This document shows, in pieces, positions 28,143 through 38,714 of a DNA stretch of 64,000 nt. The stretch is taken from the sequence record MK047718.1; one strand, given 5' to 3'. This stretch comes from Escherichia phage p000y. A model generated the notes under the pieces. The model saw only the letters and a program-made list of their open reading frames with translations. It was not told the DNA's origin and made no database searches. Within the stretch, counting starts at the first letter, position 1; each line of letters opens with the position of its first letter. The position numbers and the translations under genes are program-made.

Positions 28143-30854
28143 ATGAAAGAATTTTACTTAACGGTTGAACAGATTGGTGATTCAATTTTTGAACGTTACA
28201 TCGATTCTAATGGCCGTGAACGTACTCGTGAAGTAGAATATAAACCATCACTGTTTGCTCATTGTCCAGAAAGTCAGGCTACGAAATATTTCGATATCTA
28301 CGGTAAGCCGTGTACTCGTAAGTTGTTCGCTAATATGCGTGATGCCTCCCAATGGATTAAACGCATGGAAGATATCGGACTTGAAGCACTTGGCATGGAC
28401 GATTTCAAATTGGCGTATTTGTCTGACACTTATAACTATGAAATCAAATACGACCATACAAAAATTCGTGTGGCTAACTTCGACATCGAAGTAACATCTC
28501 CGGACGGGTTCCCTGAGCCGGCACAAGCAAAGCATCCGATTGATGCTATCACCCATTATGACTCAATTGACGACAGGTTCTATGTATTTGATCTATTGAA
28601 TTCTCCATACGGCAATGTGGAAGAATGGTCTATCGAAATTGCGGCTAAGCTTCAAGAACAAGGTGGTGATGAAGTTCCATCCGAAATTATCGACAAAATT
28701 GTTTATATGCCGTTTGATAATGAAAAAGAATTATTGATGGAATATCTCAACTTCTGGCAACAGAAAACTCCTGTCATTTTGACTGGATGGAACGTTGAGT
28801 CATTTGATATTCCATATGTGTATAACCGAATCAAGAATATTTTTGGCGAATCTACTGCGAAACGTTTATCACCACATCGTAAAACTCGTGTTAAAGTTAT
28901 CGAAAACATGTATGGTTCTCGTGAAATCATTACATTGTTCGGTATCTCTGTTCTTGATTACATTGACCTTTACAAAAAGTTCTCTTTCACGAACCAACCG
29001 TCGTATTCTCTGGATTACATTTCAGAATTTGAATTGAACGTTGGTAAACTGAAATATGACGGCCCTATTTCTAAACTTCGTGAAAGCAATCACCAACGAT
29101 ATATTTCTTATAACATTATCGATGTGTATCGTGTATTGCAAATTGATGCTAAGCGTCAGTTCATCAACTTGAGTTTGGACATGGGTTATTATGCTAAAAT
29201 TCAGATTCAATCTGTGTTCAGTCCAATTAAAACATGGGATGCTATTATTTTTAATAGCCTTAAAGAGCAGAACAAGGTGATTCCACAAGGTCGTTCTCAC
29301 CCGGTTCAACCTTATCCTGGCGCTTTTGTTAAGGAACCTATTCCAAATCGATACAAATATGTAATGAGTTTCGACCTTACATCTCTGTATCCAAGTATTA
29401 TTCGCCAAGTGAATATTAGCCCTGAAACAATAGCAGGAACGTTTAAAGTAGCTCCACTGCATGATTATATTAACGCAATCGCTGAACGTCCTTCAGATGT
29501 GTACAGTTGCTCTCCTAACGGCATGATGTATTATAAAGACCGTGATGGTGTAGTTCCAACTGAAATCACTAAGGTCTTTAATCAACGTAAAGAACATAAA
29601 GGTTACATGCTTGCAGCTCAACGTAATGGTGAAATAATTAAAGAGGCATTGCATAATCCTAATCTTTCTGTTGACGAACCATTAGATGTTGATTATCGTT
29701 TTGACTTCACTGACGAGATTAAAGAAAAGATTAAAAAGTTGTCTGCTAAATCTCTTAATGAAATGTTGTTTAGAGCTCAACGTACTGAAGTTGCAGGTAT
29801 GACTGCACAAATTAACCGTAAATTGCTTATCAACTCACTTTATGGTGCACTTGGCAACGTTTGGTTCCGTTATTATGATTTGCGTAATGCTACTGCAATC
29901 ACAACATTTGGTCAAATGGCTTTACAGTGGATTGAACGTAAAGTTAATGAATATCTGAATGAAGTTTGTGGTACAGAAGGTGAAGCTTTCGTTCTTTATG
30001 GTGATACAGACTCTATTTACGTATCTGCTGATAAAATTATCGATAAGGTTGGTGAATCTAAATTCCGTGATACCAACCATTGGGTAGACTTCTTAGATAA
30101 GTTTGCTCGTGAACGTATGGAACCTGCTATTGATAGAGGTTTCCGTGAAATGTGTGAATACATGAACAATAAACAACACTTAATGTTCATGGACCGAGAA
30201 GCTATCGCTGGGCCTCCGCTTGGTTCTAAAGGTATTGGCGGATTTTGGACTGGTAAGAAACGTTATGCATTAAACGTGTGGGATATGGAAGGTACTCGTT
30301 ACGCTGAGCCTAAACTCAAAATCATGGGTCTCGAAACACAGAAATCTTCGACTCCTAAAGCAGTACAGAAAGCTCTTAAAGAATGTATTCGTCGTATGCT
30401 TCAAGAAGGTGAAGAATCATTACAAGAATATTTTAAAGAGTTTGAAAAAGAATTCCGTCAATTGAATTATATTAGCATCGCGTCGGTATCTTCTGCGAAT
30501 AACATTGCTAAATATGATGTAGGTGGATTCCCGGGTCCTAAATGCCCGTTCCATATTCGTGGAATTCTGACATATAACCGAGCTATCAAAGGTAATATTG
30601 ATGCACCACAAGTTGTAGAAGGTGAAAAAGTATATGTTCTGCCTTTACGTGAAGGAAACCCATTCGGTGATAAATGTATCGCATGGCCTTCTGGTACTGA
30701 AATCACAGATTTAATTAAAGACGATGTACTTCATTGGATGGACTACACTGTTCTCCTTGAGAAGACATTTATTAAACCACTTGAAGGATTCACATCAGCA
30801 GCTAAACTCGATTACGAGAAGAAAGCATCTCTGTTCGATATGTTTGATTTTTGA
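28143..30854 (+). CDS. 43: DNA polymerase gp43 (family B)
   Basis: 903 aa; exo motif FDIEV, pol motifs DLTSLYPSII, KLLINSLYG, YGDTDS; length and N-terminus read as RB69-type gp43. Confidence 0.95.
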   Translation: MKEFYLTVEQIGDSIFERYIDSNGRERTREVEYKPSLFAHCPESQATKYFDIYGKPCTRKLFANMRDASQWIKRMEDIGLEALGMDDFKLAYLSDTYNYEIKYDHTKIRVANFDIEVTSPDGFPEPAQAKHPIDAITHYDSIDDRFYVFDLLNSPYGNVEEWSIEIAAKLQEQGGDEVPSEIIDKIVYMPFDNEKELLMEYLNFWQQKTPVILTGWNVESFDIPYVYNRIKNIFGESTAKRLSPHRKTRVKVIENMYGSREIITLFGISVLDYIDLYKKFSFTNQPSYSLDYISEFELNVGKLKYDGPISKLRESNHQRYISYNIIDVYRVLQIDAKRQFINLSLDMGYYAKIQIQSVFSPIKTWDAIIFNSLKEQNKVIPQGRSHPVQPYPGAFVKEPIPNRYKYVMSFDLTSLYPSIIRQVNISPETIAGTFKVAPLHDYINAIAERPSDVYSCSPNGMMYYKDRDGVVPTEITKVFNQRKEHKGYMLAAQRNGEIIKEALHNPNLSVDEPLDVDYRFDFTDEIKEKIKKLSAKSLNEMLFRAQRTEVAGMTAQINRKLLINSLYGALGNVWFRYYDLRNATAITTFGQMALQWIERKVNEYLNEVCGTEGEAFVLYGDTDSIYVSADKIIDKVGESKFRDTNHWVDFLDKFARERMEPAIDRGFREMCEYMNNKQHLMFMDREAIAGPPLGSKGIGGFWTGKKRYALNVWDMEGTRYAEPKLKIMGLETQKSSTPKAVQKALKECIRRMLQEGEESLQEYFKEFEKEFRQLNYISIASVSSANNIAKYDVGGFPGPKCPFHIRGILTYNRAIKGNIDAPQVVEGEKVYVLPLREGNPFGDKCIAWPSGTEITDLIKDDVLHWMDYTVLLEKTFIKPLEGFTSAAKLDYEKKASLFDMFDF

Positions 30855-30894
30855 TATAATGCCAAGGACGGCCAACTAATTAAATGAGAGAAAT

Positions 30895-31530
30895 ATGAAA
30901 ACTACACCAATCACTATCGCTATTGACGCAATCGTAAAACAAGCTTCATCTCTTGCCACTATGGCTAAAGTAATTAGTCAAAACCCTGCTCGTTATAATG
31001 CTATTCTAGAAACTCTTCGACGCCCGGGACTTAGTAATTATGAAAGCCGAGTAATTATTACAGGTGTTGGTAAGAACGCTAATATCGCAACTAAAGCTTC
31101 CGAGACTTTTGCTTCACTCGGTATCCCAAGTATGTACTTGAACACTGGGCATTATTCTCATGGTGACGCAGGATTTATTGCACCTAATGATGTATTAGTT
31201 CACATCAGTCGTTCTGGTAAGACTGAAGAAATGATAGGTGTTGCTAAACATCTTCGTATGATTCGTCCTCAGGTTAAACAGATTCTGTTACATTGTAACC
31301 CTGACATTCCACAAGAATACGAAGCTCTTTTTGATTATACGTTCTGTACCGGTATCGCGGTAGAAGTTGACGAGAACTCTTTAGCTCCGACAATGTCTAC
31401 TACATTGTTGTTAGCGCTTATCGATACGTTCGCTATCAACCTTTCGTCTGAACGTGGATTTACCTCTAATGACTTCCTTAAGTTCCATCCAGGCGGTGCA
31501 CTAGGTGCCATGTTACGAGGCGAACAATGA
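30895..31530 (+). CDS. SIS-domain sugar-phosphate isomerase (KdsD/arabinose-5-phosphate isomerase-like)
   Basis: 211 aa; ITGVGKNANIATKASETFASLGIPS...HGDAG...HISRSGKTEE follows the KdsD/GutQ SIS pattern (GxGKS, ATFASxG, HGDxG, SxSGxTxE). Confidence 0.6.
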   Translation: MKTTPITIAIDAIVKQASSLATMAKVISQNPARYNAILETLRRPGLSNYESRVIITGVGKNANIATKASETFASLGIPSMYLNTGHYSHGDAGFIAPNDVLVHISRSGKTEEMIGVAKHLRMIRPQVKQILLHCNPDIPQEYEALFDYTFCTGIAVEVDENSLAPTMSTTLLLALIDTFAINLSSERGFTSNDFLKFHPGGALGAMLRGEQ

Positions 31531-31670
31531 AAGCAATAACAATAGGACTTTTACTATTGATGCTTGTCATGACTATCTACTGGAGCTTAACGGCTCCAGT
31601 AATGATTCCAACACTTGTAATTGGATGGATTATGATTGGACTACAAGCAAAGTATGAATGCTTTAACTAG
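31527..31670 (+). CDS. Small hydrophobic membrane peptide, 47 aa
   Basis: ATGA-coupled to the SIS gene; MKAITIGLLLLMLVMTIYWSLTAPVMIPTLVIGWIMIGL...; below the track cutoff. Confidence 0.4.
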   Translation: MKAITIGLLLLMLVMTIYWSLTAPVMIPTLVIGWIMIGLQAKYECFN

Positions 31671-31711
31671 AATAGTGTACAATACTCCTACTTACCAATG
31701 AGGACTTCAAC

Positions 31712-33397
31712 ATGAAAAAAGCTGTTATTCTTGGTGCTGGATTGGCAACTCGTTTATATCCAATAACGCATCATATTCCTAAGGTGCTTGTTAACTATAA
31801 ACAAGACACTATTCTGAGCAATTTGTATACAATTTATTCTGACCTTGGCGCAGATGAAATTATTGTAGTAGTTCATTCAAAATTTGCTGAAACTGTTCGA
31901 GCTTATTGTGAGCAAGAAGGGTTCAATGTGACTATTCGTACAGTTGATGAAGCATACGGTTCTGCTTATGCTCTTGCTAAATTACACAAAGATTTAGACG
32001 GCCATAACGTAATTGTTAACTGGTGTGATATTATTCCTGACTTTGGTTCATGGTCTTGGAATGTTAACGCAATCTATGTTAAGGGTGATGAATGTCGATA
32101 TAATTTCGATGGTGAAAATATCACTAACGTAGGTTCAACAGGTGGTAATGTTGTAGGAATTTATCAGTTCAAAGACTGGGAATTCTACATGGGTTCTACT
32201 GATGAGGAAATTCACGAATACTGCAAAGGTCGTGATTTCGTAGAATTCCTTTACGGCAGTGCATTCAATAAATCAGAGCTTATGAATCTAATTGATTTAG
32301 GTGATATGCCTAAACTTGAAAAGGCTCATGAAGTTCGTGAACTGAATCGTAGTTTTAATGCAGTTGAAATTGGCGAAGAAACTGTAACTAAATTCGCGTT
32401 AACCGAACAAGGTCGAGCTCTTCAAAAAGATGAGATTTCATGGTATTTGAAAGTGAAATCAGATTCAGTTCCTCAGTTAGTTTCGGTAAATGAAAATAAT
32501 TTTGAAATGGAACGTATTAAAGGTAAGCCGGCATTTGAATATATTAAATCCAAATCAAGTCTTGCTCGTCCACAAATTGTTGATGCAATTTTAGATGCAC
32601 TGAAATTCAGCACGGACACTTATTTTGTAAGTCCTGAAACTGTTCGCCGTGATTTCACTAAAGAGTTCTATACGAAAGTTATTGATCGTTGTGAAAGCAT
32701 TCAGCCATTGATTGATTCATTTGGTAAAATCACACACGTGAACTACACTAAAATTGGACGTCTGAAGCCAATGTTGAAACAAGCTTTAGAACATCTTATT
32801 CGTTATCATAACCGTTCTCAGGGACAGTACTCTGTTATTCATGGTGACCCGAACTTCAGTAATACTATGATTACCGATAACGGCGAAGTCAAGTTTATCG
32901 ACCCTCGTGGATATTTTGGTGAAACCAAGATTTACGGGCCAAAATTATATGATGAAGCTAAAGTGCTTTATGCTGTTTCAGGTTATGATGAATTCAATGC
33001 TAATCCGACCTGGGGACAGTTTACTATTGATGAAACAACTTGTAATGTGACTATTAACATCAATCCATTAGTTTACAAATATGGAAAGATGAGTTCGTTT
33101 AACGAGTATCATCATTTGGCTGTAGCAATTATCTGGATTGCATTAGGTGGTTATTTCAAGAATAATCCACTTAAAGCGGTTGCCGCATATTATAAAGGTA
33201 TGGAACTTCTGACTAAGCAATTACGTAACATGGGCCGTGTACTTCAAGACGGCTCTATTAGTTATGACGTAGCAGAACCTGTAACGGCTACTCTGATTAC
33301 AAAAAATCCTGGTAAATGGGTACTAACTGATAAAGAAACTGGTGTTTCCTATCGTCCAATCGGCGGCGATATCACTCATCAATGGGAACGAATCTAA
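31712..33397 (+). CDS. Bifunctional sugar-1-phosphate nucleotidyltransferase / APH-fold anomeric sugar kinase (MurU-AmgK-like fusion)
   Basis: 561 aa; N-terminal NTase motif AVILGAGLATRL; C-terminal kinase motifs HGDPNFSNTMI and FIDPRGYFG; RBS TGAGGA. Confidence 0.6.
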   Translation: MKKAVILGAGLATRLYPITHHIPKVLVNYKQDTILSNLYTIYSDLGADEIIVVVHSKFAETVRAYCEQEGFNVTIRTVDEAYGSAYALAKLHKDLDGHNVIVNWCDIIPDFGSWSWNVNAIYVKGDECRYNFDGENITNVGSTGGNVVGIYQFKDWEFYMGSTDEEIHEYCKGRDFVEFLYGSAFNKSELMNLIDLGDMPKLEKAHEVRELNRSFNAVEIGEETVTKFALTEQGRALQKDEISWYLKVKSDSVPQLVSVNENNFEMERIKGKPAFEYIKSKSSLARPQIVDAILDALKFSTDTYFVSPETVRRDFTKEFYTKVIDRCESIQPLIDSFGKITHVNYTKIGRLKPMLKQALEHLIRYHNRSQGQYSVIHGDPNFSNTMITDNGEVKFIDPRGYFGETKIYGPKLYDEAKVLYAVSGYDEFNANPTWGQFTIDETTCNVTININPLVYKYGKMSSFNEYHHLAVAIIWIALGGYFKNNPLKAVAAYYKGMELLTKQLRNMGRVLQDGSISYDVAEPVTATLITKNPGKWVLTDKETGVSYRPIGGDITHQWERI

Positions 33398-33783
33398 TGC
33401 ACCGTGTAGAAAACATGCTTAATCTTTGTTTTGATGTCGATGATTGTATAACAGAGTGGAATAACAATCGTGATTACGTGAACTTCAAACCAGACGTCGA
33501 AATGGTGTCTGCCATTAATGCCCTGTATGATGCAGGGCATACCATAACGCTTTACACTGCCCGTGGTATGAAGTCGGTAGGTCCTGGTCGTATAGCAATT
33601 GACATTCTCCCAAGTCTGATTCAGAACTTGGAAAACATTGGTTTGAAGTACCATAATTTGCTAACACATAAACCAGTATATGATTGGATTATCGACGACA
33701 AAGCTATGCGTCCTGACGAATTCAAAGCTCTTATGAATAAAGGCGAATTCGAAACATTTAAATCATATAAACCAAATCTATAA
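33397..33783 (+). CDS. HAD-superfamily phosphatase (KdsC-like), about 128 aa
   Basis: HAD motif I FDVDDCIT, motif II LYTARG, motif IV WIIDDKA; TAATG overlap with the upstream gene. Confidence 0.55.
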   Translation: MHRVENMLNLCFDVDDCITEWNNNRDYVNFKPDVEMVSAINALYDAGHTITLYTARGMKSVGPGRIAIDILPSLIQNLENIGLKYHNLLTHKPVYDWIIDDKAMRPDEFKALMNKGEFETFKSYKPNL

Positions 33784-33829
33784 TAATTTAAGTAAGACCT
33801 GCAAAAACCATCGCATCAATTAACGCGAG

Positions 33830-34999
33830 ATGCAAAAAATGAATACTTTTAAAATCGGAACGAATTTTGATTTAGCTCTTCTTGATAAAATCGTAGAGCT
33901 CAATAAAACCTATCCTAATAGCTTGATAAACGAAGTATATGGCTCTACAAGAGAAATGGCTTTTGTAGCAGCCAGACCTGATTTTAGGCTTCCTGACGTT
34001 GACAAAAAGATGTTAGAAGACTACGTTAAACGTTGTAACGAATTAGGTATTTGCTTTAACTATACACTCAACACGATAAATCCTGGTTCAAAAAGAGAAC
34101 TAGTTGAGTGGAAGAAGAAAGCTATTCAGGATTATGTTCAGTATCTTTGGTCAATAGGCGTATGGCGTATTACTATCGCTAACCCTGTTGTTATGGAAAT
34201 TGTTCGTGAAGTCAATAAAGATATTGAGATTGAAGTTTCAACAATTCTACATGTCGATGCGGTAACTCAAATCAAATACTTACATGACCAATATAACATC
34301 AAAAAGGTCTGTTGCGGAATTCATAAGAACCGTTCAGTTTCTTTCCTGAAGCGTGCAGCAGAGTTTTGCAATAAGAACAATATAATATTTGAAGTTCTTG
34401 TAAATGAGTTCTGTTCTAATGCTGGTAAAGGGTATACAACACATTGTAGTTATCGTGACTCTTGCTATATTTTCCATAGTACTGATGTTACCGCTGATGA
34501 TGCTAAATCCTTAAATGGATATCCTATGCAGCACTGTATTAAAGCTCGTGATACAGACCCATTTAACTGGTTGAGAACTCGTTTTGTTCGTCCTCAAGAT
34601 TTGAAACTTTATAATGATATTGGTATCACTCAATTCAAAGTTTCAGGACGTACAGGTAGCACAGACTACATTTTGAAAGTTCTTGAAGCATACGCTTCTG
34701 AAAAGTTTGAAGGTAATTTGTTAGAACTGTGGAAGCCTTTAGAGACTATTTTCACTCTTGAAAATGAGACTGAGTTTTCACATACAGTAAATATTGAAAC
34801 CTCTTTGTTAGATGGCTTTTTAGAAAAAAGGTGGTTCAGACATCCAGATTTTGATTGTGCTAATGAAATCTGTGGGTCAACGTGTACATATTGTGAAAGG
34901 TATTATAAACGTCAATTATCTAAAAACGGGTTAGCAGAAAACTCCATATCTATTATTGATATAACTAACTCTGATGACGCTTTGAGGTACCCGGAATGA
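33830..34999 (+). CDS. Cys-rich enzyme of unknown function, 389 aa (possibly peptidase-U32-like/Fe-S)
   Basis: Clustered cysteines (VCCGIH, FCSNAGKGYTTHCSYRDSCY, C-terminal CANEICGSTCTYC); family assignment is tentative. Confidence 0.35.
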   Translation: MQKMNTFKIGTNFDLALLDKIVELNKTYPNSLINEVYGSTREMAFVAARPDFRLPDVDKKMLEDYVKRCNELGICFNYTLNTINPGSKRELVEWKKKAIQDYVQYLWSIGVWRITIANPVVMEIVREVNKDIEIEVSTILHVDAVTQIKYLHDQYNIKKVCCGIHKNRSVSFLKRAAEFCNKNNIIFEVLVNEFCSNAGKGYTTHCSYRDSCYIFHSTDVTADDAKSLNGYPMQHCIKARDTDPFNWLRTRFVRPQDLKLYNDIGITQFKVSGRTGSTDYILKVLEAYASEKFEGNLLELWKPLETIFTLENETEFSHTVNIETSLLDGFLEKRWFRHPDFDCANEICGSTCTYCERYYKRQLSKNGLAENSISIIDITNSDDALRYPE

Positions 35000-35235
35000 T
35001 TTCTAGAAAAAGTTTTAATTATAAACTTAACGAAGAGATTTTGACTATGAAACTGAACACTAACGAACAAATTCTTAAAAAGGCCCTTATGGGCCTGTTT
35101 GAAACCAAAGCGGCTAAAGTGATTAAAGAACCTGTTCAATTGGAATACTACACTGATGCATTCCTTCATAGTGTTCTTGGAAGTATAGATTCTGAAGCTT
35201 TACGTTATATCAACATTGTCAAGAAATTCAAATAA
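34996..35235 (+). CDS. Hypothetical protein, 79 aa
   Basis: ATGA-coupled ORF. Confidence 0.35.
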   Translation: MISRKSFNYKLNEEILTMKLNTNEQILKKALMGLFETKAAKVIKEPVQLEYYTDAFLHSVLGSIDSEALRYINIVKKFK

Positions 35236-35258
35236 GCTTTACGAATTGAGTATATAAT
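35236..35258 (+). promoter_or_regulatory. Middle promoter (GCTTTA plus TATAAT) upstream of the hydroxymethylase gene
   Basis: GCTTTA 35236-35241, 11 nt, TATAAT 35253-35258; RBS GAGG before ATG 35278. Confidence 0.5.
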
Positions 35259-35277
35259 AAATTGTATTGAGGTAAAC

Positions 35278-35994
35278 ATGGGAAAACATAACACAATGAA
35301 ATATATCAAAGCCGCAGATTTTCAAACCGCATTTAAAGCAGTCAATCGTGAAATTTTAGAAAACCCGGAATTCGTAACTGATTCTCGTATTGGACGTTGT
35401 AATGAAATTGGGTCTATGACAGTAGTTGTTGACACTCCATCATCATTCAAAATGACCGACCCACGTATTAACCGCATCTCTTATGAATATGCCGAAGACT
35501 TCTGGAAGTTTATGATTTCTGGTGGTACCAACGCAGAAGAAGCGTTTAAGGCATATCCTAATGTCGCTAAATTTATTTCTAAACCAAAATCAGATGTTTT
35601 GCCGGCGAACTTCAACACTTTCTATGGTCCTCGCATTGCGGCCCAATTACCAACTCTTCTAAAAGAACTTAAAGAAAAACCTAACTCTCGAAGAGTTGTG
35701 TTCCAAATTCTAGAAAGTTCTGATCAGGCTTTGCTTGATTCGGACGAAACACTTGAATATCCATGTACTGACTCAGTAACTTATTATATTCGTGATGGTA
35801 AGCTTTATACCCACTGTCATATGCGTTCTCAGAACTGTGCTGTTGTTATGCAGTTGGATTTTTATCTCCAAGGAAAATTACTTCATTATATCGCTAACGA
35901 ATGCGGTGTAGAAGTTGGTGATTATACTCATACCATGGTAAGTGCCCATGTGTTTGAACGTGATTTTGATTATGTTAAAGGATTCCTTGACTAA
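35278..35994 (+). CDS. 42: Thymidylate-synthase-fold pyrimidine hydroxymethylase (gp42 dCMP hydroxymethylase-like, divergent)
   Basis: 238 aa; nucleophile-Cys context YPCTDSVTYYIRD and HMRSQN typical of the TS / dCMP-hydroxymethylase fold; same position as T4 gene 42. Confidence 0.6.
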   Translation: MGKHNTMKYIKAADFQTAFKAVNREILENPEFVTDSRIGRCNEIGSMTVVVDTPSSFKMTDPRINRISYEYAEDFWKFMISGGTNAEEAFKAYPNVAKFISKPKSDVLPANFNTFYGPRIAAQLPTLLKELKEKPNSRRVVFQILESSDQALLDSDETLEYPCTDSVTYYIRDGKLYTHCHMRSQNCAVVMQLDFYLQGKLLHYIANECGVEVGDYTHTMVSAHVFERDFDYVKGFLD

Positions 35995-36893
35995 TGGCTA
36001 TTTTCCGCGTACCAATCTTGAGTATGCGGTCTTATGAAACTGGACAGTATGCTATCCTTAAGGATGGCAACTTCCAACTTCATTTGCACCGTGCTAATCC
36101 GGGTGATGTGATTACATATCCACGTAATGCATCTGATATTAAAGAATGCGAACGTCTTTTCCCAGAATTTAAGTTTGTTCCATTATGGTATAAAGATAAC
36201 GCGTATAACACTCGTAAATATTTCTGGACTGAAAATGAATTTGTGGTTGATTCATTAATTGATTATTATGATTGTGATTTTCTAATCACAGATATCACTG
36301 GTTATGGCGGCGCTTTTGATGTGGAATTCAATTTCAATATCACTGCAGACCCTAATAAACCACGTTTTTATATTGATGAATTCTTAAAAACCGACATGTT
36401 GTCTGTTAATCGTTCACTTCAAACTACTGTGTTGAATGAACGTCAAAAAGAAGTGCTGGTTAACGCAGGTGCAGATGGTAATAAGATTATCGTAACGCAG
36501 AAAGTTATACGTCCTTCCATCATGCAGCGTCTTGTAGGTGATTTGGCTCCTATTCATCTAGATGGTATTTTTCATCCATTTCGAATTAGTGACCCATGTT
36601 ATCGTTTTGAACAAGTGGTTGAATGTGCAATTCAATTAGGTCAACCGCTTTATATAACCGATCCAAATAATAGCTTCGACAGAAATAAGTATCCTGAAGA
36701 AGCGCTGATTCGAATTTTTAAACCAACTAAAACTGAGTACTATCAAATTCTTAAAGGACGTCCGAAAATTCAATATTTCGAAAATCCTGAAGAAGTATTC
36801 CATCCAGGTCTTGGTGAGTTCATCTACTTTAATGCTTTAATTTCTTCGCCGTATAATATACCTAAATACGAAGATGTCGTAATCGAGGAATAA
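35994..36893 (+). CDS. Hypothetical protein, 299 aa, at the position of T4 beta-glucosyltransferase
   Basis: ATGA-coupled to the hydroxymethylase gene; no recognisable motif. Confidence 0.4.
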   Translation: MAIFRVPILSMRSYETGQYAILKDGNFQLHLHRANPGDVITYPRNASDIKECERLFPEFKFVPLWYKDNAYNTRKYFWTENEFVVDSLIDYYDCDFLITDITGYGGAFDVEFNFNITADPNKPRFYIDEFLKTDMLSVNRSLQTTVLNERQKEVLVNAGADGNKIIVTQKVIRPSIMQRLVGDLAPIHLDGIFHPFRISDPCYRFEQVVECAIQLGQPLYITDPNNSFDRNKYPEEALIRIFKPTKTEYYQILKGRPKIQYFENPEEVFHPGLGEFIYFNALISSPYNIPKYEDVVIEE

Positions 36894-36894
36894 A

Positions 36895-37443
36895 ATGGCT
36901 AAAATTATTTTAGTAGATGGCCCGGATAATGCTGGTAAAACAACTTTCATTAATGACATAATGGAAATTAGTGAAAGATATGTAAAGATTGATTTCCCTA
37001 AACGAACAGTTGATGGACGTTTCGATGTTAAGTCTCGAAATGAAGTTGGCTGTTTCGAAACGATGTTGAATTATTTAGACCCTACTAAGATTTATCTGTT
37101 AGACCGTGGATATATTAGTAACTGGGTTTATGGACGTATTCGACAAGATGCGGACTCGATTCTTGACGTTTATGAACAGGACTATGTTCGTCTTTGCCAA
37201 AACCATGATGTGTTCACAATTATTTTAACACGTAACGAAATGACTGAAAGTTTTGAAGACGACCTTATTACTTTGTCTTCATTCGGTTTTAATACAGTCA
37301 TTTCACATTTTGAAGAGTTTGCAATTCATAACAAAATCCAAACGTATCAATTACTTAATCATGATGGTGCTAACAAAGTTATAGGATTTAATGCAAGCGA
37401 ACGTAATTATTTGATTACAGAAATTATCAAATGGGCTCGTTAA
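36895..37443 (+). CDS. P-loop nucleoside/nucleotide kinase-like protein, 182 aa
   Basis: Walker A ILVDGPDNAGKTT, then LLDRGYISNWVYG resembling the dNK/TMPK fold. Confidence 0.5.
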   Translation: MAKIILVDGPDNAGKTTFINDIMEISERYVKIDFPKRTVDGRFDVKSRNEVGCFETMLNYLDPTKIYLLDRGYISNWVYGRIRQDADSILDVYEQDYVRLCQNHDVFTIILTRNEMTESFEDDLITLSSFGFNTVISHFEEFAIHNKIQTYQLLNHDGANKVIGFNASERNYLITEIIKWAR

Positions 37444-37541
37444 GAGCCATTTAAAGTTTTAAATGCTGTATAACCCTTAGTATATAATCATCTTATCTTT
37501 TAAACATGAGTAAAATATAATGATGCCTATGGAAAAATACA

Positions 37542-38714
37542 ATGTCTGATTTAAAATCTCGTCTGATTAAAGCTTCTACTTCTAAAATGACTGCAGACTT
37601 GACTAAGTCTAAGCTGTTTAATAATCGTGATGAAGTCCCTACTCGTATTCCGATGTTGAATATTGCATTAGGTGGTGCACTGAATGCCGGGTTGCAATCA
37701 GGCTTAACTATTTTTGCTGCTCCTTCTAAACACTTTAAAACGTTGTTTGGGCTGACCATGGTTGCAGCATATATGAAGAAATATAAAGATGCAATCTGTT
37801 TGTTTTATGACTCAGAATTCGGTGCTTCAGAATCTTATTTTCGTTCAATGGGTGTTGATTTAGACCGTGTAGTTCATACTCCGATTCAATCTGTCGAACA
37901 ACTTAAAGTTGATATGACTAATCAGCTTGACGCGATTGAACGCGGTGATAAAGTTATTATCTTTATCGATTCAATCGGTAATACTGCATCTAAGAAAGAA
38001 ACCGAAGATGCGTTGAACGAGAAAGTTGTAGGTGATATGTCTCGTGCTAAGGCACTTAAATCTCTGTTTCGCATTGTGACCCCGTATCTGACTATTAAAG
38101 ATATTCCGTGTGTTGCAATTAACCATACCGCAATGGAAATCGGCGGACTATATCCTAAAGAGATTATGGGTGGTGGTACAGGTATTCTTTACTCTGCTAA
38201 CACTGTATTCTTTATCTCTAAACGTCAGGTTAAAGAAGGTACAGAATTGACCGGTTATGACTTCACGTTGAAAGCAGAAAAATCTCGTACAGTTAAAGAG
38301 AAATCTACTTTCCCAATCACAGTTAATTTTGATGGTGGTATCGACCCATTCAGTGGCTTGTTAGAAATGGCAACTGAAATTGGTTTTGTAGTTAAGCCTA
38401 AAGCCGGGTGGTATGCTCGTGAATTCCTTGACGAAGAAACAGGTGAAATGATTCGTGAAGAGAAATCATGGCGTGCTAAAGCTACTGATTGTGTAGAATT
38501 CTGGGGACCGTTGTTTAAACACAAACCTTTCCGTGACGCAATTGAAACTAAATATAAACTAGGTGCTATCTCTTCTATTAAAGAAGTTGATGACGCTGTT
38601 AATGACCTTATTAATTGCAAAGCAACAACTAAAGTTCCGGTTAAAACTTCTGATGCTCCGTCTGCAGCAGATATAGAAAACGACCTTGATGAAATGGAAG
38701 ATTTCGATGAATAA
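37542..38714 (+). CDS. uvsX: Recombinase UvsX (RecA-like)
   Basis: 390 aa; ...MLNIALGGALNAGLQSGLTIFAAPSKHFKT... RecA-fold Walker A; reads as T4 UvsX. Confidence 0.92.
   Translation: MSDLKSRLIKASTSKMTADLTKSKLFNNRDEVPTRIPMLNIALGGALNAGLQSGLTIFAAPSKHFKTLFGLTMVAAYMKKYKDAICLFYDSEFGASESYFRSMGVDLDRVVHTPIQSVEQLKVDMTNQLDAIERGDKVIIFIDSIGNTASKKETEDALNEKVVGDMSRAKALKSLFRIVTPYLTIKDIPCVAINHTAMEIGGLYPKEIMGGGTGILYSANTVFFISKRQVKEGTELTGYDFTLKAEKSRTVKEKSTFPITVNFDGGIDPFSGLLEMATEIGFVVKPKAGWYAREFLDEETGEMIREEKSWRAKATDCVEFWGPLFKHKPFRDAIETKYKLGAISSIKEVDDAVNDLINCKATTKVPVKTSDAPSAADIENDLDEMEDFDE

What the first reader, a model, noticed from the sequence alone, without database searches (positions are those of the whole stretch)
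36895..37443. Extra P-loop nucleoside/nucleotide kinase between the modification genes and uvsX
It carries a Walker A (ILVDGPDNAGKTT) and a dNK/TMPK-like DRGY segment. T4 has its dNMP kinase (gene 1) elsewhere, so an additional kinase here may phosphorylate modified nucleotides or supply NTP for sugar activation.
Basis: inference. Interest (0 to 1): 0.45.

Follow-up and report, generated by a model that had tools for sequence, protein, structure and literature searches.

The report
Extra nucleotide kinase beside DNA-modification genes
This is a real gene of an RB69-like (T4-type) phage that encodes a divergent thymidylate-kinase-fold enzyme and travels with the genes that replace cytosine by sugar-coated 5-hydroxycytosine; the literature already lists it as a putative 'nucleotide kinase', and no test of its substrate is reported in the papers I could read.

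Summary
Window 36895..37443 (+) is an intact 182-aa ORF with a Walker A (GPDNAGKT) and a DRGY segment. It is 98% identical to RB69 gp45.

The window is a Mosigvirus. According to Lee et al. 2026, these phages carry arabinosylated 5-hydroxycytosine, not hydroxymethylcytosine.

The gene is the last member of a tightly packed trio: 5-hydroxy-dCMP synthase, then arabinosyltransferase 1, then the kinase. This order recurs in about 20 diverse T4-like and metagenomic loci. Where dS is unsaturated, dN/dS is 0.09-0.24.

My best reading is a dedicated kinase for the 5-substituted dCMP made next door, working in parallel with the gp1-type kinase. The substrate is inferred, not shown.

Lee et al. 2026 already list RB69 gp45 as 'nucleotide kinase', and He et al. 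2026 (not readable here) may have tested it, so I rate it as already known.

New side observations: fusions of this kinase to an MBD4-type glycosylase, and a phage (MP1) that lost the cluster but kept the kinase.

The parts
36895..37443 (+). CDS of the 182-aa TMPK-fold P-loop kinase homologue (orthologue of RB69 gp45 / NP_861735.1)
36885..36889 (+). GAGGA ribosome-binding site inside the 3' end of the upstream glycosyltransferase gene. That gene's stop TAA is at 36891-36893 and the kinase ATG at 36895.
   Evidence: Read directly from the sequence. Translational coupling is inferred.
36919..36942 (+). Walker A / P-loop GPDNAGKT (residues 9-16). D11 is invariant. N12 occupies the position of the P-loop Arg of type I TMPKs.
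   Evidence: Invariant in 20/20 orthologues. In the wider family, D11 is kept in 62/65 and G14 and K15 in 65/65. Aligned to vaccinia TMPK 'GLDKSGKTT' by HMMER.
36994..37005 (+). FPKR motif (residues 34-37), matching the FPxR of eukaryotic and poxviral TMPKs
   Evidence: F34, P35 and K36 are invariant; R37 is kept in 16/20. Aligned to vaccinia TMPK 'FPQR'.
37015..37062 (+). Conserved block G41 R42 F43 ... R48 N49 E50 V51 .. F54 E55 T56, the predicted acceptor (NMP)-binding segment
   Evidence: Invariant columns. Aligns with the TMPK helix that carries the base-stacking Phe and the base-reading Arg (HMMER alignment). The exact register is uncertain.
37102..37131 (+). DRGYISNWVY (residues 70-79), the DRx motif plus the following helix
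   Evidence: In the wider family R71 is kept in 65/65, D70 in 62/65 and Y79 in 63/65. Aligned to TMPK 'DRFVLSTIAYQ' and YorR 'DRFVYSNLVY'.
37231..37269 (+). Segment at the LID position, R113-x6-F120-E-D122-D123-L-I. It is acidic instead of the Arg-rich LID of TMPKs.
   Evidence: R113, F120, D122, D123, L124 and I125 are invariant in 20/20. In the wider family D/E122 is kept in 56/65 and D123 in 51/65. Lower model confidence here (pLDDT 72 for residues 121-130).
35994..36893 (+). Upstream neighbour: 299-aa putative arabinosyltransferase 1 (RB69 gp46:47)
   Evidence: ORF. PHROG 3891. Identified as the initial GT candidate in PMC13326640. Adjacent to the kinase in nearly all related loci.
35278..35994 (+). 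5-hydroxy-dCMP synthase (ThyA homologue, RB69 gp48). Its stop codon overlaps the next gene's start (TAATG).
   Evidence: Pfam Thymidylat_synt 1.9e-15. 'MRSQN' (D169N) and N177D signature. The RB69 orthologue's activity was shown experimentally (PMC13326640). Junction sequence.
30895..35235 (+). Rest of the cluster: arabinose-5-P isomerase (30895..31530), bifunctional sugar kinase/nucleotidyltransferase (31712..33397), HAD phosphatase (33382..33783), U32-family protein (33830..34999) and a 79-aa ORF (34996..35235)
   Evidence: ORFs. Annotations in phage p000v. Pfam and PHROG hits. Roles as given in PMC13326640.

Best explanation
The gene encodes a small, divergent ATP-dependent nucleoside-monophosphate kinase of the thymidylate-kinase fold. 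It is the third gene of a portable three-gene cassette: flavin-dependent 5-hydroxy-dCMP synthase, then GT-B arabinosyltransferase 1, then the kinase. In RB69-like phages this cassette occupies the locus where T4 has gene 42 and beta-gt. Its most likely job is to phosphorylate the 5-substituted dCMP made by its neighbour (5-hydroxy-dCMP to 5-hydroxy-dCDP). Host NDP kinase and the phage polymerase would then put 5-hydroxycytosine into DNA, where it is arabinosylated. It would act in parallel with the phage's gp1-type dNMP kinase, as the cassette's own kinase. What is shown: the ORF, the fold, the conserved P-loop/FPxR/DRx motifs, the synteny and purifying selection. What is inferred: catalytic activity, and above all the identity of the acceptor nucleotide.

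For: Genomic coupling. The order synthase-GT1-kinase recurs in the reference phage p000v, in the 13 IMG/VR loci that carry all three genes contiguously, in Morganella phage Rgz1 and in 3 metagenomic contigs. In those contigs the kinase is only 30-39% identical to ours. Lee et al. list a TMPK-like 'nucleotide kinase' beside GT1 and the synthase in RB69, DLP3 and the unrelated Rhizobium phage RL38J1, which uses hexoses, not arabinose (PMC13326640). A distant phage contig (L025) has a D169N synthase, then a 63-aa ORF, then the kinase, beside FMN reductase and arabinose genes. More distant homologues in PMBT14-type phages sit 2 kb from ThyA homologues with N177D, which are dCMP-specific by the published rule. 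No homologue of the window's GT1 or sugar genes was found in those 16-20 kb loci.

Retention in MP1. Phage MP1 lost the synthase, GT1 and all arabinose genes but kept an intact kinase with the family motifs. Its td paralogue uniquely carries N177D.

Selection and packing. dN/dS is 0.09-0.24. Gene junctions are tight and suggest translational coupling.
Against: RB69 gp159, the gp1-type dNMP kinase, already converts 5-hydroxy-dCMP to the diphosphate in vitro. Together with gp48 it suffices to put 5-hydroxy-dC into E. coli DNA (PMC13326640). A second kinase is therefore not obviously required.

The protein misses every curated kinase-family threshold. It lacks both the P-loop Arg and the Arg-rich LID that TMPKs use for catalysis, having N12 and the acidic F-E-D-D.

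No assay of this protein is reported in the papers I could read. Nothing in the sequence tells cytosine-type from thymine-type acceptors; an invariant Arg48/Asn49 pair aligns, with uncertain register, to the thymine-O4-reading Arg of TMPKs.

Broader relatives in Gordonia and Salmonella phages are annotated plain 'thymidylate kinase'. I did not check whether a ThyA homologue accompanies them.
Confidence: 0.5

Rival explanations
1. It is a kinase for the glycosylated mononucleotide. GT1 would add the first arabinose to 5-hydroxy-dCMP before replication. This kinase, not gp1, would convert the bulky arabinosyl-5-O-dCMP to the diphosphate, so the first sugar would enter DNA through the polymerase.
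For: The gene order synthase-GT1-kinase reads like a metabolic pipeline and is conserved, with coupled junctions. Lee et al. saw no arabinosylation of 5hoC-containing DNA by individual GTs with UDP-Araf or UDP-Arap. They state that their experiments do not distinguish nucleotide-level from post-replicative first arabinosylation (PMC13326640). This reading would explain why a second kinase exists beside gp1.
Against: The kinase persists in phages or loci without GT1: MP1, PMBT14-type loci and the L025 fusion locus as far as the contig reaches. In locus L016 the kinase is separated from GT1 by about 3 kb. From established knowledge, every characterised phage DNA glycosylation is post-replicative. 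The negative GT result is 'data not shown' and could be technical. He et al. 2026 may already have shown DNA-level transfer; I could not read that paper.
Confidence: 0.12
2. It is a general pyrimidine-nucleotide kinase (dTMP, UMP/CMP or dCMP) that boosts pools, for example UTP for UDP-arabinose or dTTP.
For: The closest structures and profiles are bona fide dTMP kinases. RefSeq names it 'thymidylate kinase'. Arabinosylation consumes UDP-sugar, and UDP-Araf is the donor that worked in vitro for the later sugars (PMC13326640). MP1 keeps the kinase without any sugar genes, which fits a general role.
Against: The family is very small and found in phage-type loci: 312 cluster representatives with E<=1e-3 among 1.84 billion. 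Where its context was examined it sits next to dCMP-modifying ThyA homologues, whatever the sugar pathway. From established knowledge, host Tmk, PyrH, Cmk and Ndk together with phage gp1 already cover dTMP and UMP. The invariant P-loop Asp that reads a 3'-OH in type I TMPKs argues for a deoxynucleotide rather than UMP, by analogy only.
Confidence: 0.13
3. It works at the DNA level. It could be a base kinase acting on 5-hydroxycytosine in DNA, analogous to the 5-hydroxymethyluracil DNA kinases (5-HMUDK). Alternatively it could be an ATPase partner of a DNA-acting enzyme.
For: In eight metagenomic cluster representatives the kinase domain is fused to a complete MBD4-type HhH-GPD DNA-glycosylase domain. 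Pairing and fusion of a P-loop kinase with an HhH glycosylase-like protein is the hallmark of thymidine hypermodification on DNA (PMC8989533). hhalign against the 5-HMUDK M6 gp54 gives 81% probability.
Against: The hhalign match covers only 82 columns around the P-loop. M6 gp54 has 'FEG' where this family has the invariant DR. The FPxR and DRx acceptor-site motifs are those of mononucleotide kinases. The fused domain resembles the repair glycosylase MBD4 (1e-19) with its catalytic Asp kept in 7 of 8; the Pfam scan reported only HhH-GPD for it, so it gave no sign of being an aGPT-Pplase-type transferase. By chemical inference, an aryl phosphate on C5-OH offers no obvious route to the observed ether-linked sugar.
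Confidence: 0.06
4. It is a deoxynucleoside (salvage) kinase of the dNK/dCK type rather than an NMP kinase.
Confidence: 0.04
5. It has lost catalysis and serves as a nucleotide-binding regulator or scaffold, or is a decaying remnant of the imported cassette.
For: It lacks the P-loop Arg and the Arg-rich LID. It appears redundant with gp1 (PMC13326640). It evolves faster than its neighbours: the kinase is 30-39% identical where the synthase is 46-69%.
Against: The Walker A Lys/Thr, the DR motif and 37 columns are invariant across genera. dN/dS is 0.09-0.24. The gene is intact in all 343 phage records matched, each covering >=80% of the query.
Confidence: 0.05

Closest known systems
RB69 gp45 (NP_861735.1), DLP3 gp78 and RL38J1 gp214: the 'nucleotide kinase' entries in the glycosyl-5-hydroxycytosine clusters of Lee et al., NAR 2026 (PMC13326640)
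   Different: Nothing of substance; it is the same gene in a sister phage. In the text I could read, the paper assigns only a generic label from structure searches, gives no assay and does not place it in a pathway step.
Thymidylate kinase (dTMP kinase; Pfam PF02223, TIGR00041), especially type I enzymes (yeast, human, vaccinia)
   Same: The fold is the same. The P-loop is G-x-D-x-x-G-K-T with the Asp. It has FPxR, DRx followed by S-x-x-x-Y/F, and the same overall order of strands and helices.
   Different: It falls below all curated cut-offs. It is 182 aa, compared with 185-216 aa for the matched TMPK chains. It has one helix where I recall TMPKs having two between strands 2 and 3 (from memory of TMPK structures). 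It has Asn instead of the P-loop Arg, and an acidic R-x6-F-x-D-D segment instead of the basic LID. Its genomic partner is a dCMP-modifying enzyme, not a dTMP-producing one.
Bacillus subtilis SPbeta prophage YorR (PDB 2axp, 3kb2), function not described
   Different: YorR keeps a basic LID ('KKRLRVRGDEY') and has Phe in place of the last Walker Gly. No link to base modification is known to me.
T4 gp1 deoxynucleoside-monophosphate kinase (PDB 1dek) and its RB69 homologue gp159
   Same: It is the functional analogue of the proposed role. From established knowledge, T4 gp1 phosphorylates the phage's modified dCMP but not dCMP. RB69 gp159 phosphorylates 5-hydroxy-dCMP (PMC13326640).
5-hydroxymethyluracil DNA kinases (5-HMUDK, e.g. 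phage M6 gp54) of thymidine hypermodification
   Same: These are small phage P-loop kinases inside base-hypermodification clusters that pair or fuse with HhH glycosylase-fold proteins (PMC8989533). Eight relatives of our kinase are fused to an HhH-GPD domain.
   Different: Similarity is confined to the P-loop region (82 columns). 5-HMUDK lacks the DR and FPxR motifs. Its partner is a transferase (aGPT-Pplase), whereas the partner here is an MBD4-like repair glycosylase domain.

Membership tests
Thymidylate kinase (Pfam PF02223 / NCBIfam TIGR00041) | Score above the curated family cut-off (27 bits Pfam; 83.25 bits TIGR00041) | tested here: not met
   The window protein gives no PF02223 hit at E<=1 and 15.7 bits to TIGR00041. 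13/20 and 18/20 orthologues give only sub-threshold hits (best 2e-4 and 1e-5).
Thymidylate kinase (Pfam PF02223 / NCBIfam TIGR00041) | TMPK three-dimensional fold | tested here: met
Thymidylate kinase (Pfam PF02223 / NCBIfam TIGR00041) | P-loop GxxxxGK[ST] and the DR[YHF] motif at the end of strand 3 | tested here: met
   GPDNAGKT and D70-R71-G-Y. R71 is kept in 65/65 of the wider family and aligns to the TMPK DRF/DRY. The third residue is Gly, not Y/H/F.
Thymidylate kinase (Pfam PF02223 / NCBIfam TIGR00041) | A catalytic Arg either in the P-loop (type I) or in a basic LID (type II) | tested here: not met
   The P-loop position is an invariant Asn12. The LID-position segment is R113-NEMTES-F-E-D-D, with a single Arg and two invariant Asp.
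Thymidylate kinase (Pfam PF02223 / NCBIfam TIGR00041) | dTMP to dTDP activity | not testable with these tools
   This needs an enzyme assay.
RB69 gp45-type 'nucleotide kinase' of glycosyl-5-hydroxycytosine clusters (Lee et al. 2026) | Orthology to RB69 gp45 | tested here: met
   178/181 residues identical. PHROG 761 E = 4e-45.
RB69 gp45-type 'nucleotide kinase' of glycosyl-5-hydroxycytosine clusters (Lee et al. 2026) | Located beside arabinosyltransferase 1 and a ThyA homologue with the D169N signature | tested here: met
   The window order is 35278..35994 (MRSQN), 35994..36893, 36895..37443. The same order is seen in about 20 related loci.
T4 gp1 dNMP kinase family | Sequence or close structural similarity to T4 gp1 (1dek) | tested here: not met
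5-HMUDK DNA base kinases | Full-length profile similarity to M6 gp54 | tested here: not met
   hhalign covers 82 columns around the P-loop only, at probability 81%. The DR motif is replaced by FEG in gp54.
Deoxynucleoside kinase (Pfam PF01712) | A family HMM hit | tested here: not met
   1 of 20 orthologues hits at E = 0.011 and none passes the cut-off. dNK structures rank below TMPKs. I did not check the dNK ERS motif systematically.

The most novel reading that the evidence does not exclude
The conserved trio synthase-GT1-kinase would be a pre-replicative pipeline. The first arabinose would be put on 5-hydroxy-dCMP, and this kinase, with its acidic LID-position motif, would be the specialist that phosphorylates the glycosylated (or at least 5-O-substituted) nucleotide. 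A sugar-bearing dNTP would then be polymerised into phage DNA. That would be the first case of nucleotide-level DNA glycosylation. Lee et al. explicitly leave open whether the first arabinosylation is nucleotide-level or post-replicative.
Probability: 0.1. Interest if true: 0.75.

Novelty: already known. Interest (0 to 1): 0.33.

Why it matters
The gene belongs to the arabosyl-5-hydroxycytosine pathway in the sense that it sits in the arabinosyl-5-hydroxycytosine cluster, and it is a cluster-specific TMPK-fold kinase.

Biologically, it is the one gene of this newly described hypermodification cluster that has no assigned step in the paper I could read. Settling its substrate would answer two questions: why these phages carry two dNMP kinases, and whether the first sugar is added before or after replication.

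Practically, a kinase accepting 5-O-substituted dCMP would be useful for enzymatic synthesis of modified dNTPs.

These are modest gains. The gene and its generic function are already in the literature, and a 2026 paper I could not read may already have tested it.

Tried and rejected
1. Single-sequence searches were uninformative. Pfam gave only AAA_14 and MMR_HSR1 at E>0.03. PDB phmmer gave spurious RecA-repeat and thioredoxin hits. NCBIfam gave nothing near cut-off. Only profiles and structure resolved the family.

2. The RecA 'hits' of the A1 profile (3cmu, 3.4e-6) come from six summed P-loop repeats and were dismissed.

3. I tested a relation to 5-HMUDK DNA kinases and rejected it as generic P-loop similarity. 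M6 gp56 was unrelated.

4. I tested whether Morganella phage MP1 is a counter-example to the link with cytosine modification. Its whole genome lacks the cluster, but its td paralogue has N177D. The case is therefore ambiguous rather than refuting.

5. I tested whether the 79-aa ORF upstream is a chorismate mutase like Rgz1 gp34. No similarity was found.

6. The sigma-70 promoter and terminator scan of 30800..37700 found nothing above shuffled expectation. T4 middle and late promoters are not covered by that tool.

7. In the dN/dS script, three pairs returned dS = -1 (saturated). My crude start-finder truncated the ORFs of L007 and L008. I discarded the four pairs that involve these loci or a saturated dS, including L010-L007 (0.32).

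8. I tried to read He et al. 2026 (Nat Chem Biol, HY126 Afh genes) and Mahler et al. 2025 (Cell Host Microbe). Neither is held. The HY126 GenBank annotation calls the gene 'hypothetical protein'. No supplements of Lee et al. are held.

9. One metagenomic look-up (P0048) returned a contig too short to show the synthase.
Full report
THE OBSERVATION. Window 36895..37443 (+) is an ATG-initiated ORF of 182 codons plus stop. A GAGGA ribosome-binding site lies at 36885-36889. The stop codon of the upstream gene (36891-36893) lies one base before the ATG. The gene lies between a 299-aa gene (35994..36893) and uvsX (37542..38714), followed by gene 40 and the gene 41 helicase. It is not a chance ORF. 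tblastn finds it in 343 phage records, all covering at least 80% of the query. An alignment of 20 orthologues going down to 44% identity has 37 invariant columns. Pairwise dN/dS is 0.09-0.24 wherever dS is not saturated.

WHERE THE WINDOW COMES FROM. The region is 98-99% identical to Mosigvirus phages such as p000v, PECP20, SHSML-52-1 and HY126. The protein is 98% identical (178/181) to RB69 gp45, NP_861735.1. RB69 was first thought to carry arabosyl-hydroxymethylcytosine, that is arabinosyl-hydroxymethylcytosine (Thomas et al. 2018, PMC6024577). Lee et al. 2026 (PMC13326640) showed that RB69 and related phages replace cytosine with mono- and poly-arabinosylated 5-hydroxycytosine. The base is made at the mononucleotide level by a flavin-dependent ThyA homologue, RB69 gp48. 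The window's gp48 orthologue (35278..35994) carries the paper's diagnostic D169N signature ('MRSQN') together with N177D. The full cluster in the window runs as follows:
- DNA polymerase, 28143..30854
- arabinose-5-P isomerase, 30895..31530
- bifunctional sugar kinase/nucleotidyltransferase, 31712..33397
- HAD phosphatase, 33382..33783
- U32-family protein, 33830..34999
- 79-aa ORF, 34996..35235
- 5-hydroxy-dCMP synthase, 35278..35994
- arabinosyltransferase 1, 35994..36893
- the kinase, 36895..37443
- uvsX
Thomas et al. state that the genes of this module have no homologues in T4.

WHAT KIND OF PROTEIN IT IS. Taken alone, the sequence matches no curated family. Pfam gives only marginal AAA hits. 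NCBIfam gives 15.7 bits to dTMP kinase against a cut-off of 83. PDB phmmer gives nothing meaningful. Only the phage-specific PHROG 761, 'thymidylate kinase', matches (4e-45). Deeper methods agree with one another:
- An HMM of 20 orthologues searched against 1.84 billion cluster representatives finds just 312 proteins at E<=1e-3 and 45 at E<=1e-10. This is a small family.
- A broadened profile of 65 members matches the SPbeta prophage protein YorR at 1.5e-13 and more than ten thymidylate kinases at about 1e-10.
- An AlphaFold2 model built on the alignment has pLDDT 89 and pTM 0.85.
- Foldseek's best PDB hits are the yeast, Ehrlichia, vaccinia, Pseudomonas and human TMPKs.

MOTIFS SHARED WITH TMPKs:
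- The P-loop is G-x-D-x-x-G-K-T, with an invariant Asp at the position that contacts the acceptor 3'-OH in type I TMPKs (established knowledge).
- FPK(R) aligns to the vaccinia and human FPxR.
- DR followed by S-x-x-x-Y aligns to DRY/DRF...S...Y/F.

DIFFERENCES FROM TMPKs:
- The P-loop Arg of type I enzymes is an invariant Asn.
- The LID position carries R113-x6-F-E-D-D-L-I, with two invariant Asp instead of the usual arginines. In the 65-member family D/E122 occurs in 56 and D123 in 51.
- The protein is shorter and lacks one helix of the NMP-binding region.
It is therefore a TMPK-fold kinase homologue but not a member of the curated dTMP-kinase family. Catalytic competence is plausible, because the Walker Lys/Thr, the DR Arg, R113, R42 and R48 are all invariant. 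It is not demonstrated.

GENOMIC COMPANY
- In reference phage p000v and in the 13 IMG/VR loci that carry all three genes contiguously, the order is synthase, GT1, kinase. These loci span Mosigvirus-like to Acinetobacter T4-like phages (kinase identity 99% to 42%). In the Enterobacteriaceae phages uvsX follows.
- Morganella phage Rgz1 has the same order.
- So do three metagenomic contigs whose kinases are only 30-39% identical to ours (L026, L034, L035). In all three the synthase has the MRSQN signature.
- In one locus (L016) the kinase sits about 3 kb away within the same cluster.
- Lee et al. list the equivalent TMPK-like 'nucleotide kinase' beside GT1 and the synthase in DLP3 (gp78-80) and in the unrelated Rhizobium phage RL38J1 (gp214-216), whose sugars are hexoses. 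I did not test RL38J1 gp214 for sequence membership in this family.
- In a distant phage contig from an assembly (L025), a D169N synthase ('MRSNN') is followed by a 63-aa ORF and the kinase, then by an FMN reductase, an arabinose-5-P isomerase and an AfhE-like gene.
- Still more distant homologues (28-33% identity) in Pseudomonas phage PMBT14 and a related contig lie 2 kb from ThyA homologues that keep D169 but have N177D. By the published rule these are dCMP-specific but not 5-hydroxylating. No homologue of the window's GT1 or sugar genes was found within those 16-20 kb loci.
The common denominator of the kinase's neighbourhood is a dCMP C5-modifying enzyme, not arabinose.

MOST LIKELY FUNCTION. 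The most economical reading is that this is the cassette's own dNMP kinase. It would convert the 5-substituted dCMP, here 5-hydroxy-dCMP, to the diphosphate, in the way T4 gp1 handles hm-dCMP. The main objection comes from the literature. RB69's gp1 homologue (gp159) converts 5-hydroxy-dCMP to the diphosphate in vitro, and gp48 plus gp159 suffice to put 5-hydroxy-dC into E. coli DNA. A second kinase therefore looks redundant. Redundancy is understandable if the trio was acquired as a self-contained module. That is an inference from its presence in non-T4 phages, and it leaves room for alternatives. I put 0.5 on this reading, about 0.8 on 'a functional mononucleotide kinase of some specificity', and lower weights on the rivals.

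THE MOST INTERESTING RIVAL. GT1 might act on the mononucleotide, and this kinase might then phosphorylate arabinosyl-5-O-dCMP. Lee et al. report that individual GTs did not arabinosylate 5hoC-DNA with UDP-Araf or UDP-Arap (data not shown). [quoted passage not shown] Against this, the kinase persists where GT1 is absent (MP1, PMBT14-type loci, L025). All characterised phage DNA glycosylations are post-replicative (established knowledge).

THE DNA-LEVEL RIVAL. The fusions prompt the idea of a 5-HMUDK-like base kinase. Eight cluster representatives of 314-357 aa join this kinase domain to a complete MBD4-type HhH-GPD glycosylase domain. The C-terminal profile matches MBD4 structures at 1e-19, and the catalytic Asp in 'PLDKEL' is kept in 7 of 8. 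A P-loop kinase plus an HhH glycosylase-like protein is the hallmark of thymidine hypermodification on DNA (PMC8989533). However, hhalign against the 5-HMUDK M6 gp54 aligns only the P-loop region, and gp54 lacks the DR motif. The fused domain also looks like a repair glycosylase rather than an aGPT-Pplase-type transferase. MBD4 removes deaminated 5-substituted cytosines opposite G (established knowledge). The fusion may therefore simply join two enzymes that handle 5-substituted pyrimidines.

A NATURAL EXPERIMENT. Morganella phage MP1 (NC_031020.1) has an intact kinase (gp031, with all family motifs) between the polymerase and uvsX. tblastn over its whole genome finds no synthase, GT1, isomerase, AfhE-like, HAD or U32 gene. 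Its sister phage Rgz1 has them all. dN/dS between the two kinases is 0.19. MP1's annotated thymidylate synthase uniquely has Asp at the N177 position ('QRSADVPLGLNFDLIQ'), where Rgz1 and Proteus phage PM2 have Asn. By the published specificity rule this predicts a dCMP-directed enzyme. MP1 may thus have swapped one cytosine modification for another while keeping the kinase. That fits a 5-substituted-dCMP kinase and argues against an arabinose-specific role. It is one case and rests on inference.

COMPARISON WITH WHAT IS KNOWN, AND NOVELTY. The gene is the orthologue of a protein already tabulated as 'nucleotide kinase' in the 5-hydroxycytosine clusters. RefSeq annotates it 'thymidylate kinase'. 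I could not read He et al. 2026 on phage HY126, whose copy is 97.8% identical, nor Mahler et al. 2025. They may contain direct data. I therefore rate the finding as already known.
- the definition of the family and its signature, including the acidic motif at the LID position;
- proof that it is a TMPK-fold protein that fails TMPK family thresholds and is unrelated to gp1;
- the extent of the synthase-GT1-kinase linkage;
- the MBD4 fusions;
- the MP1 case.

VERDICT. Interest is modest (0.33). The open and testable question is what the second kinase phosphorylates, and whether that reveals nucleotide-level glycosylation.

Noticed in passing
L025:8001-9074 (protein P0059); also P0060, P0065, P0067, P0069, P0074, P0076, P0116: Metagenomic proteins of 314-357 aa fuse this kinase family to a complete MBD4-type HhH-GPD DNA-glycosylase domain. 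The C-terminal profile matches MBD4 structures at E = 1e-19, and the catalytic Asp is kept in 7 of 8. In L025 the fusion sits between a D169N ThyA homologue and an FMN reductase, an arabinose-5-P isomerase and an AfhE-like gene. One possibility is a repair enzyme for deaminated 5-hydroxycytosine (5-hydroxyuracil opposite G).
   Followed up: partly
L021:20500-21030 (MP1 gp031) and L023:42020-42859 (MP1 'thymidylate synthase' gp154): Morganella phage MP1 lacks the entire arabinosyl-5-hydroxycytosine cluster genome-wide but keeps an intact kinase. Its td-locus ThyA homologue has Asp at the N177 position and Ala at C168, whereas the sister phages Rgz1 and PM2 have Asn and Cys. By the published rule this predicts a dCMP-directed enzyme and perhaps 5-methylcytosine DNA.
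   Followed up: partly
window 33830-34999; L020:18023-18400: The 'peptidase U32' gene of the cluster (RB69 gp50, labelled 'sugar or heterocycle reductase' in Lee et al.) belongs to the U32 family: Pfam 7.4e-11, with a weak UbiU hit at 9e-4. As I recall, that family includes the O2-independent, prephenate-dependent hydroxylases RlhA, TrhP and UbiU/V. In Morganella phage Rgz1 a bona fide chorismate mutase (Pfam CM_2, 46 bits) lies between the U32 gene and the 5-hydroxy-dCMP synthase. This hints at an anaerobic route to 5-hydroxycytosine alongside the O2- and flavin-dependent synthase.
   Followed up: partly
window 34996-35235: A conserved 79-aa ORF (PHROG 8601, E = 2e-50) lies between the U32 gene and the synthase and overlaps the U32 stop codon. 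It has no Pfam or NCBIfam match and no similarity to the Rgz1 chorismate mutase at the same position. HY126 annotates only a 40-codon ORF there.
   Followed up: partly
L018:10001-12589 (Pseudomonas phage PMBT14) and L019:6170-9571: Non-T4 phages with a family A polymerase carry a module of TMPK-like kinase, a 139- or 235-aa ORF, a 261- to 282-aa ORF of unknown function, and a ThyA homologue with D169 kept and N177D. This predicts a 5-methyl- or 5-hydroxymethyl-cytosine pathway.
   Followed up: partly
window 37464-37488: The 98-nt gap between the kinase and uvsX contains TGCTGT, one mismatch from the T4 MotA-box core TGCTT as I recall it. It lies 13 nt upstream of TATAAT, so this may be a middle promoter for uvsX. 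The sigma-70 scan tool does not cover this promoter type.
   Followed up: no
window 35994-36893 compared with L032:2098-2998 (RB69p046/p047): The arabinosyltransferase-1 gene is one intact 299-codon ORF in the window. The RB69 reference record splits it into two ORFs. This agrees with the sequencing error reported by Lee et al..
   Followed up: yes
L026:8877-11743: In a distant T4-like metagenomic contig the uvsX gene downstream of the kinase appears to be interrupted. Two tblastn pieces are separated by about 1.4 kb, and a called gene there carries a faint intein-splicing Pfam hit.
   Followed up: no
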